DNA from: Candidatus Latescibacterota bacterium
GTDB lineage: Bacteria > Latescibacterota > UBA2968 > GCA-2709665
Assembly: GCA_965219455.1 (NCBI GenBank)
Contig: OZ244744.1
Span: 384,001-448,000 of the forward strand
Reading direction: 5' to 3'
DNA length: 64,000 nucleotides
Shown here: in pieces, positions 32,391 through 35,596 of the stretch
Position numbering within the stretch: position 1 is the stretch's first letter
Layout of the letters: each line of letters opens with the position of its first letter
Made by a program: the position numbers and the translations under genes
Notes under the pieces: model-generated
What the model saw: the letters and a program-made list of their open reading frames with translations, nothing else
Told to the model about the DNA's origin: nothing
Database searches by the model: none

Positions 32391-33113
32391 TTACCTGTTA
32401 CTCCCTTCAAGCAACCGCAGGTCGGCCTTTATTAGAAGATTCACGATATCCAAATGCCCATTCTCGTAAGCCAAATCCTGTGCGGTTTTTCTGTCCGGCG
32501 AATCGTGAACCTGTTGGGGATACGTACGATTAAGATATCCGATCCTCTTAGGCGTGCGGCTGTTTGCGTCGACACCGGCGTGTCCACGTCGATCATAAAG
32601 GCGACTTCGAGTAGAGCCACTTTTTTTACGCACGTCCGCGCCTGCCTGGATCAGCGCTTTGACGATCTCCACGTGCCCCCTCTCAGCGGCGAACATCAGC
32701 GCCGTTTTCCCGTCTCTCAGCGCAAGGTTGGCGTGGTAACGGGAACGATGCGCCATGAACAGGGACTGAGGTCCGGAACTGTCGACATTTACGAACCGCT
32801 CTCGGGTAAGCTCTGGAGCCAGATGGCGGTAGATGCGCGTACGCGAATTTGCGCCTATAGTCCAAGCCCTGACATCCAGTTCCGCACCGGCCTGAATCAA
32901 CGCCCGGACTACGTCCAGGTGCCCTTCCCTGGCCGCCAGCGTCAGCGGGCTTTGCCCCTGAACCGTCCTGGCATTCACGTCGTGTCCATCGTGCAACGCC
33001 CGCTGCACGGCTTGCAGGTCTCCGAGCTCTGACAATTCCATCAACGAGGCGCCGCAACCCCCCACACCCATCACGATCAACAGAAATGCAAATGGCTTGA
33101 TCGTTCGAGACAT
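32391..33113 (-). CDS. Ankyrin-repeat lipoprotein
   Basis: GGAGG RBS; lipobox VGGC; GQSPLTLAAREGHLDVV and GKTALMFAAERGH ankyrin repeats. Confidence 0.85.
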   Translation of the reverse strand: MSRTIKPFAFLLIVMGVGGCGASLMELSELGDLQAVQRALHDGHDVNARTVQGQSPLTLAAREGHLDVVRALIQAGAELDVRAWTIGANSRTRIYRHLAPELTRERFVNVDSSGPQSLFMAHRSRYHANLALRDGKTALMFAAERGHVEIVKALIQAGADVRKKSGSTRSRLYDRRGHAGVDANSRTPKRIGYLNRTYPQQVHDSPDRKTAQDLAYENGHLDIVNLLIKADLRLLEGSNR

Positions 33114-33163
33114 TGGCCGCCTCCGCTGTGAGTCGATCATCGATCCTGCTCGTTCCAATCGAA

Positions 33164-33192
33164 AATATATCCACCTTCGCCTTTTAGGTCAA
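33164..33192 (-). promoter_or_regulatory. Putative sigma70 promoter for ankyrin gene 1
   Basis: TTGACC-17 nt-TATATT on the minus strand. Confidence 0.55.
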
Positions 33193-33244
33193 ATCGTATC
33201 TCGACCCCCAATACCATAGCCGGAATTCTCCGCGACTAATTCGC

Positions 33245-33928
33245 TCATGGCCCTTCGACATCGACCCCGTTTTTAAGTAGCCTCAAGACTTCCTTCTCCA
33301 CTTCATCGTAGTCTATCTTTCCCGACCACTGCGCCACGATCCGACTCTCTCTATCGAGAAGATACATGGCCGGAATCGCTTTCACCTTGAACTGATACCA
33401 CGCGGGGGTCTGTTTCTCTTCGACAAAGATGGGATAGGAAATATCCAATTTGCCCACCATCTTCCTGATCTTCTCAACGCGGTCTTTGTCTTCATCAATA
33501 GACACACCCCAGACGTCAAAACCCTTGCCGGAATACGCGCTGTAGAGTTTCTGCAACCGGGGCATCGTCTCAAGACAGGGTTTGCACCACGTGGCCCAGA
33601 AATCCACGAGCACGACTTTGCCCTTCAAATTCCTCAACGACTTGTCCCCGCCCTCCAGTGTTTCAATGACGAAGGCAGGTGCAGGCCGCGGGAATACCGG
33701 TGGCAAATAAGCCACGGGATCTGCGTCGAATTCCTTTTCGCAGTTTTCAGAACAGAAATAGTACGCCTTGCCTTCATATTCAGAATGGGCTTTGACCTTT
33801 TCCAACTCCGTCTCGCCGCCCTTCAATGCACAGACAGGGCAGAGCGCCGTTTCGGGAATCCGCGTTTCAGCGAGAAGCGCTGGCGGACCTGACAAAACAA
33901 TCAGAATTAACAGAACGCTAAAACGCAT
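33245..33928 (-). CDS. Exported YHS/TRASH-domain + TlpA redoxin fusion
   Basis: Signal peptide; CPVC...YEGKAYYFCSENC...F..DP (YHS/TRASH); GKVVLVDFWATWCKPC (TlpA); GGAGG RBS. Confidence 0.88.
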   Translation of the reverse strand: MRFSVLLILIVLSGPPALLAETRIPETALCPVCALKGGETELEKVKAHSEYEGKAYYFCSENCEKEFDADPVAYLPPVFPRPAPAFVIETLEGGDKSLRNLKGKVVLVDFWATWCKPCLETMPRLQKLYSAYSGKGFDVWGVSIDEDKDRVEKIRKMVGKLDISYPIFVEEKQTPAWYQFKVKAIPAMYLLDRESRIVAQWSGKIDYDEVEKEVLRLLKNGVDVEGP

Positions 33929-33939
33929 TGATCCTCCAT

Positions 33940-34602
33940 CTAAAACCCGAGTGAAAGCGACAAACCCATGGTTTCAAGCCACACATAAATCACACTCACT
34001 CCGTATTGAGCGGCGAAATAATTCAGCATCAGGTGCCCCCGGTCGCCGTCGTACATCGGTCGAAATGAAAAGCCTTTGCCCAATTCGACCCCCACGCCAA
34101 AGGGAACATTGAGCTTCTCATCCCATTCCGAATAATTCAAACTGCCATAAAAAGACGTGCGCAGCCGGGGTATATATTTGCTTATCGTCGCAAAGTAAGA
34201 TTGTTCGCCCGCCGGCGAACCGATTCGATCCGAACTCGTGCCCAAGAAGAGCGCAGGCCGCGTCTCGGTCTCGGTTAACAGGAACAGAGTCACAAGAGGT
34301 CCCGCCTCTTTGGCTTTCGGGTTCAGCTCAACCCCGACCTGCAGGCGATGATGCAAACTGTAATTGGCGGTGAACCGCCACTGCGGGCGGTCCATTGAGG
34401 TATCTACGTACCGCCCCGAAAATGTAATCTTCGTATGGATGCCACTCCCCCGGAGTGGTGCGCCTTCGCCCGGTCAGCCTACTCACGTAGGTGTCATCGA
34501 AAATGTCGGCCGTTCACTCCGCGTGGAATCCGCGTCCGATTCCTGTGCAAAAACGGGGGAGGTACCGAGGTATAGGATCAAGAAAAAAAGGACGAATTTC
34601 AT
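33940..34602 (-). CDS. Putative UxxU selenoprotein outer-membrane beta-barrel (in-frame TGA at codons 40 and 43)
   Basis: GGAG RBS before ATG 34602. Signal peptide MKFVLFFLILYLGTSPVFA, then ...MTPT-TGA-V-G-TGA-PGEGAP... in frame with the 151-aa ORF, which ends in an amphipathic strand with terminal Phe (GLSLSLGF). Confidence 0.72.
34442..34458 (-). promoter_or_regulatory. SECIS-like hairpin
   Basis: CCACTCC-GGG-GGAGTGG; the loop begins 22 nt after the second TGA. Confidence 0.55.
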
Positions 34603-34727
34603 CAATGTGCTCCGTTGACCGAGCCAAAATAATTCACGAAATGCCGTTTTCTTACTCAAGTCATTGTATTATGGTTAGACCAACAAACCTGCAATAACGA
34701 ACTTCAGGGACACAACTCGCGCATACC

Positions 34728-34770
34728 ACAAAATTCGGTCTCGCAAGATAACGCTTTTACGAGACCGAAT
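34728..34770 (-). terminator. Intrinsic terminator after ankyrin gene 2 (homologous to 32321-32359)
   Basis: Minus strand ATTCGGTCTCGTAA-loop-TTGCGAGACCGAAT followed by TTTGT. Confidence 0.7.
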
Positions 34771-34798
34771 CTCCAACGGAGAAGACCGCTCCAGGGTC

Positions 34799-35596
34799 CT
34801 ATCTTGAACTCGATGGAGTCATCCCGGCGCCCGTTTCCAGGAGTAAATCGATGATCTCTTTATGTCCGTTCTGGTAAGCGAAGTCCAGTGCCGTGCTTCC
34901 GCCGATCGACCAGGAAGGACGGCCGGGGTATGAATGGACAATATCGTAATAGAGATGGCGGCCATGCTCAGGCCCGTAGTAACTGCCGCCATGTTTATCC
35001 TCTTCGTGTCCGATGTCTTCCGGTTGCGCGCCGGTGTAACCAGCGATATACCCGTCATAATCCTTATACGAAGGCATTCCGGAGGTCACGATTTCACCGC
35101 CGCTTGTCGCGAACAGGTCGGCGCCGCCTTCGACAAGCGCCTCGACAACATCCAGGTGACCGCCCTCGGCAGCAAGCATCAACGCTGTTTTACCGTCTCT
35201 CAGTACCCAACTCGCCGAGCCGCGTGTACGCTGCGCCATAAACCTGGACTGGGGCCCGGAACTGTCGGGGTTGACATACCGTTCCCTGATGAACGCGTAG
35301 CCGCCATGTCGATCCTGGCTTTCGACAGTATGGGCGCCTACGGTCCATGCCACGGCGTCGAGGTCCGCGCCGGCCTGGATCAGGGCCAGAACGACCTCCA
35401 GGTGACCCGCCCTGGCTGCCAGCGTCAACGGGCTGTGCCCCTGAGGCGTCCTGGCATTCACGTCGCGCCCGCGATCGAGGGCCCGCTGGACGCCCGTAAT
35501 GTCTCCACGCTGTGACAATTCTGTCAGCGAAGCGCTGCATCCGGCCGCGCCCACCAGTAAAAGAATCAGCGTTAATCTATTGATTTTAAAGGACAT
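34799..35596 (-). CDS. Ankyrin-repeat lipoprotein (paralog of 32391-33113)
   Basis: Lipobox AAGC; GHSPLTLAARAGHLEVV, GKTALMLAAEGGH and TALDFAYQNGH repeats. Confidence 0.85.
   Translation of the reverse strand: MSFKINRLTLILLLVGAAGCSASLTELSQRGDITGVQRALDRGRDVNARTPQGHSPLTLAARAGHLEVVLALIQAGADLDAVAWTVGAHTVESQDRHGGYAFIRERYVNPDSSGPQSRFMAQRTRGSASWVLRDGKTALMLAAEGGHLDVVEALVEGGADLFATSGGEIVTSGMPSYKDYDGYIAGYTGAQPEDIGHEEDKHGGSYYGPEHGRHLYYDIVHSYPGRPSWSIGGSTALDFAYQNGHKEIIDLLLETGAGMTPSSSR

What the first reader, a model, noticed from the sequence alone, without database searches (positions are those of the whole stretch)
33940..34602. Hidden UxxU di-selenocysteine outer-membrane beta-barrel missed by the ORF track
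Seen: the 151-aa ORF (33940-34395) extends in frame to ATG 34602, which has a GGAG RBS and a clean signal peptide (..SPVFA|QE). The only interruptions are two TGAs three codons apart (34485-34483 and 34476-34474: T-*-V-G-*-P), the spacing of a CxxC redox/metal motif. A CCACTCC-GGG-GGAGTGG hairpin follows, and the C-terminus is an amphipathic strand ending in Phe. Known: bacterial Sec is UGA with a SECIS hairpin just downstream, and a terminal Phe is the BAM beta-signal. Inferred: a 220-aa exported barrel with an N-terminal U-V-G-U motif. Di-Sec motifs and outer-membrane selenoproteins are both unusual.
Basis: partly seen in the sequence, partly recalled or inferred. Interest (0 to 1): 0.92.

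Follow-up and report, generated by a model that had tools for sequence, protein, structure and literature searches.

The report
Two-selenocysteine outer-membrane barrel protein gene
The two "stop" codons are almost certainly read as selenocysteine, so this is one 220-residue exported barrel protein from a widespread family that databases record only as a shortened hypothetical protein.

Summary

**The frame.** On the minus strand, 34602-33940 is one frame. It is broken only by TGA at codons 40 and 43 (T-U-V-G-U-P).

**Conservation.**
- All 28 intact orthologues found in 168 genomes of the phylum carry TGA at both positions. So do 11 of 11 metagenome loci of a sister clade. Identity falls to 55%.
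- Distant homologues in Armatimonadota have Cys at both positions (P-T-C-A-G-C).
- Two database proteins show Trp there. These are gene calls that read TGA as Trp, because their DNA relatives carry TGA at both positions.

**Recoding signals.**
- The hairpin CCACTCC-GGG-GGAGTGG lies 15 nt after the second TGA and 24 nt after the first. It is 97% paired and shows compensatory changes at silent codon positions.
- The genome has selA, selB, tRNA-Sec and a Sec-containing selD.
- TGA is the genome's commonest stop, so there is no general recoding.

**Structure.** The predicted structure is a 12-stranded outer-membrane barrel. The best structural match is FapF (Z 16.1). The U-x-G-U motif sits on a low-confidence N-terminal arm.

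**Partner genes.** A YHS-TlpA-like thioredoxin gene follows in 26 of 28 loci. In the Cys forms the YHS domains are fused to the barrel, and a thioredoxin gene follows in 12 of 21 loci.

**Function and novelty.**
- The function is inferred, at about 45%: a soft-metal or redox site kept reduced by the thioredoxin.
- The family matches no Pfam or NCBIfam model.
- UxxU motifs and barrel selenoproteins have both been predicted before in other families.

The parts
33940..34602 (-). Complete selenoprotein gene: 220 codons plus a TAG stop, with two in-frame TGA codons
   Evidence: Full-length orthologues with the same two TGAs appear.
34610..34613 (-). GGAG ribosome-binding site, 7 nt before the ATG at 34602
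   Evidence: Read from the sequence.
34546..34602 (-). Signal-peptide-like N-terminus (residues 1-19, ...SPVFA|QE)
   Evidence: by inspection only. A hydrophobic N-terminus is visible in 27 of the 28 orthologue frames printed; in L028 (G147) an extra TAA cuts it off.
34429..34545 (-). N-terminal arm (residues 20-58) carrying the T-P-T-U-x-G-U-P-G-E-G-A-P-L-R-G-S-G motif
   Evidence: The motif is present in 28 of 28 loci. Most of the arm is low-confidence in the model: pLDDT is under 50 for residues 18-35 and 44-55.
34483..34485 (-). First TGA (codon 40), read as selenocysteine
   Evidence: TGA here in 28 of 28 phylum loci and 11 of 11 metagenome loci. Cys at this position in distant homologues.
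34474..34476 (-). Second TGA (codon 43), read as selenocysteine
   Evidence: Same evidence as for the first TGA.
34442..34458 (-). SECIS-like hairpin: 7-bp stem and GGG loop. The stem starts 24 nt after the first TGA and 15 nt after the second
   Evidence: On 28 sequences, 97.3% of cells are paired. Two pairs show compensatory changes: AU 10, GC 10 and GU 4 at one pair; CG 23 and UA 2 at the other. None of 500 shuffles reaches the covariation score, and slid controls pair only 31-70%.
33946..34428 (-). 12-stranded beta-barrel domain (residues 59-219), ending in Gly-Phe
   Evidence: AlphaFold2 block-mean pLDDT is 85-94 from residue 61 on. VIA-align matches: FapF Z 16.1, COG4313 channel Z 15.8, KdgM Z 15.8. 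All top Foldseek hits are outer-membrane barrels.
33245..33928 (-). Downstream partner gene: exported YHS domain plus a TlpA/ResA-like thioredoxin (W-A-T-W-C-K-P-C). It starts 11 nt after the barrel gene's stop
   Evidence: Pfam: YHS 38.8 bits, AhpC-TSA 70.6 bits. NCBIfam: ResA subfamily 94.3 bits, below that model's cut-off. It lies directly downstream in 26 of 28 loci.

Best explanation
**Shown, about 0.9.** 34602-33940 (minus strand) is one gene for a selenoprotein. Both UGA codons, 9 nt apart, are recoded to selenocysteine. A single SECIS hairpin just downstream appears to serve both codons.

**Predicted, about 0.85.** The product is exported and folds into a 12-stranded outer-membrane barrel. 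Its N-terminal arm carries a U-x-G-U motif that is equivalent to the C-A-G-C motif of the Cys homologues.

**Inferred, about 0.45.**
- The arm is a selenolate site for a soft metal (Cu is the first guess; Fe, Hg and others remain open). It lies at the periplasmic mouth of the channel or inside its lumen.
- The motif can close to a diselenide.
- The co-transcribed periplasmic YHS-TlpA-like thioredoxin returns it to the reduced, metal-binding state, as TlpA does for the Cys pairs of ScoI and CoxB.
- The YHS domain takes part in handing the metal over.
For: **Recoding**
- Both TGAs are kept in 28 of 28 intact orthologues from 168 genomes of the phylum. They are also kept in 11 of 11 loci of a marine metagenome clade. 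Identity falls to 55%.
- The 11 codons after the motif differ among orthologues almost only silently: 1316 synonymous against 54 non-synonymous pairwise codon differences.
- Homologues have Cys at both positions.
- The hairpin shows compensatory changes at third codon positions.
- The genome holds a selA-selB-tRNA-Sec cluster and a selD with its own in-frame TGA.
- SelA is found in 27 of the 28 genomes that carry the gene. The exception is an 81%-complete assembly.
- TGA closes 1111 of 2190 long frames in this genome and ends 8 of the 28 orthologues, so it is an ordinary stop here.
- Contigs from an RNA library span both TGAs and the start codon. This is a weak hint only.

**Barrel**
- The structure prediction and both fold searches agree.
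- The C-terminal residue is Phe in 25 of 28 orthologues.

**Function**
- A YHS-thioredoxin gene lies directly downstream in 26 of 28 loci.
- In Armatimonadota the YHS region is instead fused to the CxxC-barrel protein in 19 of 21 loci by tblastn. Pfam confirmed YHS on two loci and two database proteins.
- There a stand-alone thioredoxin gene follows in 12 of 21 loci.
- TlpA keeps the Cu-binding Cys pairs of ScoI and CoxB reduced (PMC6669012, passages read).
Against: - No protein-level evidence exists. Selenium incorporation, export and membrane location are all untested.
- The arm has low model confidence, so its position is unknown.
- No Rfam SECIS model matches the region.
- It is not established for this organism that one hairpin can serve two UGA codons whose distances to the stem differ by 9 nt.
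- The thioredoxin partner is missing in some loci: L010, the one marine-clade locus whose neighbours I read, L074, and 9 of 21 Armatimonadota loci. It therefore cannot be obligatory.
- Family members with no Cys or Sec motif exist. The barrel therefore has a role that does not need the motif.
- The metal is a guess. A YHS + CxxC + thioredoxin set also occurs in an iron-uptake cluster (PMC10783030, passages read).
Confidence: 0.8

Rival explanations
1. The gene and recoding are as above, but the U-x-G-U arm is a redox catalyst and not a metal site. It would be an envelope selenol/diselenide oxidoreductase tethered to the barrel and fed with electrons by the TlpA-like thioredoxin. Candidate substrates are peroxides, disulfides or polysulfides.
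For: - Most predicted bacterial selenoproteins are thiol-type oxidoreductases with UxxC, CxxU or UxxU motifs (PMC9312934 and PMC13188914, passages read).
- A thioredoxin-fold partner is conserved next to the gene.
Against: - The motif lies on a flexible arm and not in a thioredoxin fold.
- YHS domains are linked to the system in two different gene arrangements. YHS is generally taken to be a metal-binding domain; that description is recalled, not from a call.
- The Cys form, T-C-A-G-C, resembles the metal-binding M-x-C-x-x-C motif. This resemblance is also recalled.
Confidence: 0.3
2. Only one of the two UGA codons is read as Sec. The other is read through by a near-cognate tRNA (Trp or Cys), or it terminates most ribosomes.
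For: In E. coli the spacing between UGA and SECIS is reported to be tight (recalled, not from a call). Here the two codons lie 15 and 24 nt from the stem.
Against: - Both TGAs are invariant in 39 of 39 loci.
- Both positions are Cys in the homologues.
- If either position tolerated Trp or Cys, some lineage would be expected to have fixed that sense codon. None has.
Confidence: 0.05
3. The TGAs are true stops. The real products are a 39-residue leader peptide and the 151-residue ORF (33940-34395), as gene callers annotate.
For: - Public gene calls give pieces of 121-173 residues for 118 of the 120 best hits.
- They also give separate 39- to 41-residue N-terminal pieces.
Against: - A 151-residue product would have no signal peptide and would lack the first barrel strand, residues 59-66.
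- The stretch between the second TGA and Met70 is strongly conserved as protein.
- The Cys homologues are continuous through this region.
- Under this reading, the hairpin covariation would have no explanation.
Confidence: 0.03
4. The locus is a pseudogene or carries a sequencing error, or TGA is a sense codon throughout this genome (code 4 or 25).
For: - Two database proteins show Trp at both sites.
- A few relatives do carry broken copies: G147 has an extra TAA, G145 an extra TAG, and the G138 copy is split.
Against: - The Trp forms are TGA in the DNA of close relatives of P0064.
- TGA is the commonest stop of long frames in this genome.
- Both codons are conserved across 39 loci.
- Independent contigs cover the site, and no variant is listed at the TGAs. 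However, 205 variant rows were not shown.
Confidence: 0.01

Closest known systems
Bacterial selenoprotein families with a UxxU motif: Prx-like thiol:disulfide oxidoreductase, metal-binding 'putative mercuric reductase' (NF041115) and the FmdB family (TIGR02605), as listed in PMC13188914 (passages read)
   Same: Two Sec residues three positions apart, in place of a CxxC motif. The mechanism is in-frame UGA plus a downstream hairpin.
   Different: - There is no sequence relation: the protein has 0 NCBIfam matches at E <= 1 and 0 Pfam matches.
- Those families are soluble redox or metal-binding folds. Here the motif lies on the N-terminal arm of a membrane barrel.
Predicted outer-membrane barrel selenoproteins: GSU2204/MtrB-PioB family (NF041027) and the FCYXU-type TonB-dependent receptor (NF049945), from the same review table
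   Same: A Sec-containing protein destined for the outer membrane.
   Different: - Those are large barrels with one Sec. This is a 12-stranded, roughly 160-residue barrel with two Sec residues.
- Neither model matches the protein.
12-stranded outer-membrane channels FapF (5o65), COG4313 channel (4rl8) and KdgM/NanC porins (4pr7, 2wjr), and autotransporter beta-domains
   Same: - The fold matches: Z 16.1 (rmsd 2.4, 167 aligned), Z 15.8 (2.8, 167), Z 15.8 (2.5, 152) and Z 13.7 (2.9, 152).
- FapF, COG4313 and the autotransporters have an N-terminal segment inside the pore. Their alignments reach back to model residues 31-42, which include the arm.
   Different: - Sequence identity is 5-14% and no Pfam family matches.
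- None of these proteins has a CxxC or UxxU arm.
- The arm's place in the model has low confidence.
TlpA with ScoI and CoxB of Bradyrhizobium (PMC6669012, passages read)
   Same: A periplasmic TlpA-type thioredoxin is encoded with, or acts on, a protein whose paired Cys (here Sec) must be reduced before it can bind copper.
   Different: - The proposed target here is a barrel arm and not a Sco fold.
- The thioredoxin carries an extra YHS domain.
- Neither the interaction nor the metal has been shown.
PcoB copper-resistance outer-membrane protein (7pge)
   Same: A barrel preceded by a flexible N-terminal region thought to bind metal (that description is recalled, not from a call). The fold match is weak: Z 9.0, rmsd 4.6, 154 aligned.
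   Different: - The structural match is much weaker than for the 12-stranded channels.
- There is no sequence relation.
- PcoB has no Cys or Sec pair.
Eukaryotic SelL, a UxxU protein reported to form a diselenide
   Same: A UxxU motif able to form a diselenide.
   Different: SelL has a thioredoxin-like fold, is eukaryotic and uses a 3'-UTR SECIS. It is not a membrane protein.

Membership tests
Bacterial selenoprotein (UGA recoded to Sec) | The in-frame TGA is conserved among orthologues, with coding conservation on both sides | tested here: met
   TGA at both positions in 28 of 28 phylum loci and 11 of 11 metagenome loci. After the motif, pairwise codon differences are 1316 synonymous against 54 non-synonymous.
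Bacterial selenoprotein (UGA recoded to Sec) | Homologues carry Cys at the Sec position | tested here: met
   P-T-C-A-G-C in P0146, P0166, P0174, P0150, P0154, P0157 and others and in 18 of 21 Armatimonadota loci.
Bacterial selenoprotein (UGA recoded to Sec) | A SECIS hairpin lies just downstream of the UGA, with G in the apical loop | tested here: met
   A 7-bp stem with a GGG or GUG loop, 15 and 24 nt after the two TGAs. It is 97.3% paired with 2 covarying pairs. The selD hairpin of the same genome also has a GG-first loop. No Rfam model matched, and bSECISearch was not available.
Bacterial selenoprotein (UGA recoded to Sec) | The genome encodes SelA, SelB, SelD and tRNA-Sec | tested here: met
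   SelA 481 bits, tRNA-Sec with anticodon TCA, the SelB wing domain in a 684-aa frame between them and SelD 359.8 bits.
Bacterial selenoprotein (UGA recoded to Sec) | Selenium is found in the protein | not testable with these tools
   This needs 75Se labelling or mass spectrometry.
Outer-membrane beta-barrel protein (BAM substrate) | A closed, antiparallel barrel with an even number of strands | tested here: met
   12 strands with block-mean pLDDT 85-94. The best structural matches are all outer-membrane barrels. This is a prediction, not a solved structure.
Outer-membrane beta-barrel protein (BAM substrate) | An N-terminal signal peptide and a C-terminal aromatic residue | tested here: inconclusive
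   The signal peptide was judged by eye only. The C-terminal residue is Phe in 25 of 28 orthologues, Ile in 2 and Trp in 1. No signal-peptide predictor was available.
NCBIfam selenoprotein models, including NF041115, TIGR02605, NF041027 and NF049945 | A score above the model's cut-off | tested here: not met
   0 families at E <= 1 for the read-through protein.
KdgM/NanC porin family and other Pfam barrel families | A Pfam profile match | tested here: not met
   0 Pfam families for the window protein. The only trace is a sub-threshold DUF5777 hit (14 bits, cut-off 23.1) on one distant homologue.

The most novel reading that the evidence does not exclude
This is a widespread and so far unannotated family of small outer-membrane channels. 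Its N-terminal arm carries a pair of selenocysteines, made from two UGA codons served by one SECIS hairpin. The arm would act as a redox-switchable, metal-binding plug or hand-over site. It would sit in or under the pore and cycle between diselenide and di-selenolate under control of a dedicated periplasmic YHS-thioredoxin. If so, selenium chemistry would be working at the outer membrane to move or trap a soft metal.
Probability: 0.3. Interest if true: 0.8.

Novelty: new variant of a known kind. Interest (0 to 1): 0.62.

Why it matters
- **Annotation.** Public gene calls cut this family at the TGAs. Of the 120 best database hits, 118 are pieces of 121-173 residues and 2 are mistranslated with Trp. 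The search found 869 protein clusters at E <= 0.001. A profile that allows Sec would correct all of these records.
- **Recoding.** The gene offers a natural case of two UGA codons, 9 nt apart, served by one bacterial SECIS hairpin. This can test how strict the codon-to-hairpin spacing really is.
- **Function.** It places a di-selenol site in the cell envelope, tied by gene order and by domain fusion to YHS and TlpA-like modules. That gives a concrete, testable hypothesis for a role of selenium in envelope metal or redox handling.
- **Uncultured groups.** It would add an outer-membrane component with no assigned family to bacteria that are mostly uncultured.

Tried and rejected
- **Rfam.** A scan of 34300-34640 at E <= 10 gave 0 matches.
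- **Promoter and terminator scan.** The scan of 33000-34900 gave counts at the level of shuffled sequence, so I draw no operon boundary from it.
- **Second small hairpin.** A possible hairpin at alignment columns 23-25/30-32 shows only one-sided changes and no compensatory ones. I do not claim it.
- **Complex prediction.** I ran the Armatimonadota CxxC-barrel with its neighbouring thioredoxin. The tool gave no verdict (score 0.00 against a mark of 0.32). This is not evidence for or against binding.
- **Protein atlas.**
  - A query with the Cys homologue P0225 returned only hypothetical Armatimonadota clusters and a YjbH (PF06082) look-alike. That is a lead, not a finding.
- **Earlier findings of this scan.** Nothing by place or by sequence.
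- **P0134.** This protein reads C-V-G-W at the motif and may be a CxxU form. No DNA for it was found in the phylum; the search found only the UxxU genes again. It stays unresolved.
- **Codons upstream of the first TGA.** The 17 codons there are only weakly constrained (1563 synonymous against 2011 non-synonymous differences). They add little beyond the conserved motif.
- **RNA library X16.** It covered only parts of the downstream gene. Contigs cannot show transcription levels or transcript ends.
- **Literature.** Searches for this family found no description of it: UxxU bacteria; YHS/outer membrane/TlpA; sponge symbiont selenoprotein; diselenide/two UGA; selenoprotein/Latescibacter. I read the review tables only as passages, and supplements were closed, so a listing there cannot be excluded.

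Full report
**1. The observation**

Read on the minus strand, the window has an ATG at 34602. It is preceded by GGAG at 34613-34610 and followed by a hydrophobic N-terminus ending ...SPVFA|QE. One frame runs from there to TAG at 33942-33940. It is broken only by TGA at 34485-34483 and at 34476-34474, giving T-U-V-G-U-P. Under table 11 only the last 151 codons are listed as an ORF. The hairpin CCACTCC-GGG-GGAGTGG lies at 34458-34442, and the protein ends ...SLSLGF. All coordinates in the finding are correct.

**2. Are the two TGAs conserved?**

I ran a six-frame search with the read-through protein.
- In 61 related genomes it found 14 full-length matches, every one with "2 TGA" inside. A fifteenth match was a short fragment that does not cover the site.
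- In all 168 genomes held for the phylum, 34 genomes matched.
- I extracted 28 loci with an intact motif. All read P-[TS]-U-[VTSM]-G-U-P-G-E-G-A-P-L-R-G-S-G, with overall identity from 99% down to 55%.
- A few relatives carry damaged copies: G147 has an extra TAA, G145 an extra TAG, G138 is split and G136 is only a short piece.

The 11 codons after the motif vary almost only at third positions. Variable sites by codon position are 1, 1 and 10, and pairwise codon differences are 1316 synonymous against 54 non-synonymous. The 17 codons before the first TGA are a looser linker, at 1563 against 2011.

**3. What do homologues have at these positions?**

The large protein database holds 869 clusters at E <= 0.001. 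Of the 120 best, 118 are pieces of 121-173 residues, which is what a gene caller produces when it stops at the TGAs. Separate N-terminal pieces of 39-41 residues also exist.

Two full-length entries, P0019 and P0064, show Trp at both sites. All 11 loci, 73-98% identical to it, have TGA at both sites and keep the hairpin. The Trp is therefore a code-4 style translation artefact.

A profile-free search of 1.84 billion representatives found distant members at 26-38% identity.
- Many have Cys at both positions (P-T-C-A-G-C-A-G-E-A).
- One reads C-V-G-W (P0134). Its DNA was not found.
- Several have no such motif at all.

A genome scan placed the Cys form in Armatimonadota. There were 21 loci, and the C-A-G-C motif was recovered in 18 of them.

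On a maximum-likelihood tree of 65 rows, the 32 UxxU rows fall on one side of a branch with support 100/95. The root is only a midpoint root, so no direction of change is claimed.

**4. Recoding machinery and signal**

The genome has the full Sec machinery.
- SelA scores 481 bits.
- A tRNA-Sec with anticodon TCA lies 2 kb downstream of selA.
- A SelB wing domain sits in a 684-residue frame between them.
- SelD scores 359.8 bits and has its own in-frame TGA, at C-G-U-A-A-K.

SelA is present in 131 of 168 genomes of the phylum. It is present in 27 of the 28 genomes that carry this gene, and the exception is an 81%-complete assembly in 810 contigs.

TGA is not generally reassigned. It closes 1111 of 2190 long stop-to-stop frames in this genome, and it is the real stop of 8 of the 28 orthologues.

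On an alignment of 28 sequences, the 7-bp stem is paired in 97.3% of cells. Two pairs change on both sides: AU 10, GC 10 and GU 4 at one pair, and CG 23 and UA 2 at the other. None of 500 shuffles reaches the covariation score, and slid controls pair only 31-70%. The covarying bases are silent third positions of Pro/Ser and Leu/Gly codons, so the signal is in the RNA and not the protein.

The stem starts 24 nt after the first UGA and 15 nt after the second. The selD hairpin of the same genome starts 12 nt after its UGA and also has a GG-first loop. From memory, bacterial SECIS searches accept roughly 16-37 nt from the UGA to the loop, and both codons here fall within that range. No Rfam model matches the region.

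**5. Independent sequence support**

Contigs from two other DNA data sets cover the region, and no variant is listed at the TGAs. However, 205 variant rows were not shown. Three contigs from one metatranscriptomic library bridge both TGAs. One is identical to the window over 189 nt (34346-34534). Another reaches 34646, beyond the start codon. DNA can contaminate such libraries, so this is only a weak hint of transcription.

**6. The protein**

Neither Pfam nor NCBIfam matches the protein.

I ran AlphaFold2 on a 50-row alignment. It gave mean pLDDT 79.8 and pTM 0.73. Residues 59-219 form 12 strands, with block means of 85-94 from residue 61 on. The arm is mostly low-confidence: pLDDT is under 50 for residues 18-35 and 44-55.

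All top Foldseek hits are outer-membrane barrels. VIA-align gives:

| Match | Z | rmsd | aligned |
|---|---|---|---|
| FapF | 16.1 | 2.4 | 167 |
| COG4313 channel | 15.8 | 2.8 | 167 |
| KdgM | 15.8 | 2.5 | 152 |
| Autotransporter beta-domains | 13.6-14.6 | | |
| NanC | 13.7 | | |
| PcoB | 9.0 | | |

Several of these proteins have a segment inside the pore, and their alignments reach back to model residues 31-42. This makes a plug-like position for the arm conceivable but unproven.

With 12 strands, both ends of the barrel should face the periplasm. This follows from general knowledge of such barrels and was not tested here.

**7. Neighbours and function**

Eleven nucleotides after the stop begins a gene for an exported protein. 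It has a YHS domain (38.8 bits) and a TlpA/ResA-like thioredoxin domain with W-A-T-W-C-K-P-C.
- This gene follows directly in 26 of 28 loci.
- One contig ends too early to tell.
- One locus, L010, has a different gene there.

In Armatimonadota the arrangement is shuffled.
- The barrel protein carries N-terminal YHS domains. Pfam confirmed them on two loci and on two database proteins, and tblastn finds the region in 19 of 21 loci.
- A plain thioredoxin gene follows in 12 of 21 loci.

YHS fused to one partner in one phylum and to the other partner in another phylum argues that the three modules work together. The marine clade locus I inspected (L074) has no thioredoxin neighbour.

TlpA is known to keep the copper-binding Cys pairs of ScoI and CoxB reduced (PMC6669012, passages read). 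A YHS + CxxC + thioredoxin set also occurs in the Campylobacter fet iron-uptake cluster (PMC10783030, passages read).

My preferred reading, at about 45%, is a soft-metal site on the arm kept reduced by the thioredoxin. A purely redox role comes second, at about 30%. A complex prediction gave no verdict.

**8. Comparison with what is known, and novelty**

A 2026 review table (PMC13188914, passages only) lists UxxU in a Prx-like family, in a metal-binding "putative mercuric reductase" family and in the FmdB family. It also lists two barrel selenoproteins, GSU2204/MtrB-PioB and a TonB-dependent receptor type. The 2022 review and the GOS paper agree on the UxxU cases. This protein matches none of those models.

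Five literature searches found no description of the family. Supplements were closed and I read the tables only as passages, so a listing under another name cannot be excluded.

I rate it a new variant of a known kind. The recoding is ordinary Sec recoding and the motif is a familiar CxxC-type one. What is new is the protein family, its membrane-barrel setting, and two UGA codons sharing one hairpin.

**9. Verdict**

| Claim | Probability |
|---|---|
| Real di-Sec selenoprotein gene | about 0.9 |
| Outer-membrane barrel | about 0.85 |
| Metal-site mechanism with a TlpA-type reductant | about 0.45 |

Interest: 0.62.

Noticed in passing
Own genome G000:C1:3407174-3408097 (minus strand), outside the window; locus L040: The selD gene is itself a selenoprotein gene. 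It has one in-frame TGA at the active-site motif C-G-U-A-A-K, and a hairpin (stem AGUCC/GGACU, loop GGUC) starts 12 nt after it.
   Followed up: partly
Own genome G000:C1:4374337-4377632, outside the window; loci L001 and L039: selA, selB (684-aa frame) and tRNA-Sec lie together as one cluster.
   Followed up: partly
window 32391-33158 (-) and 34799-35596 (-): Ankyrin-repeat genes flank the barrel/thioredoxin pair on both sides. In at least one relative (L016), an ankyrin-like ORF with a lipoprotein-like N-terminus also follows the thioredoxin gene.
   Followed up: no
Loci L008-L036 (tree, genome tallies): The gene is patchy: it is found in 6 of the 14 other genomes searched in the window's own genus. 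Its tree also does not follow taxonomy, because copies from the window's family sit among copies from another family of the same class. This suggests transfer or repeated loss within the phylum.
   Followed up: partly
Genomes G147 (L028), G145 (L038), G138 and G136: These copies look damaged: one has an extra TAA, one an extra TAG, one is split into two pieces, and one is a short piece with three TGAs. The gene appears to be decaying in some lineages.
   Followed up: no
Protein P0134: This distant homologue reads P-A-C-V-G-W-P-G-E-G. If its Trp is another mistranslated TGA, it would be a mixed CxxU form. Its DNA was not found.
   Followed up: partly
Loci L054 and L063 (tree): These two contigs are labelled as a Methyloversatilis bin and a Synechococcus bin. 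Their genes sit among, and are nearly identical to, Armatimonadota copies. Mis-binning is a likely explanation.
   Followed up: no
window 34700-34790 (-), between the upstream ankyrin gene and the start codon: An inverted repeat (GGTCTCG ... CGAGACC) followed by a T-rich run looks like a terminator for the upstream gene. Its loop is too long for the consensus scan, which did not report it.
   Followed up: partly
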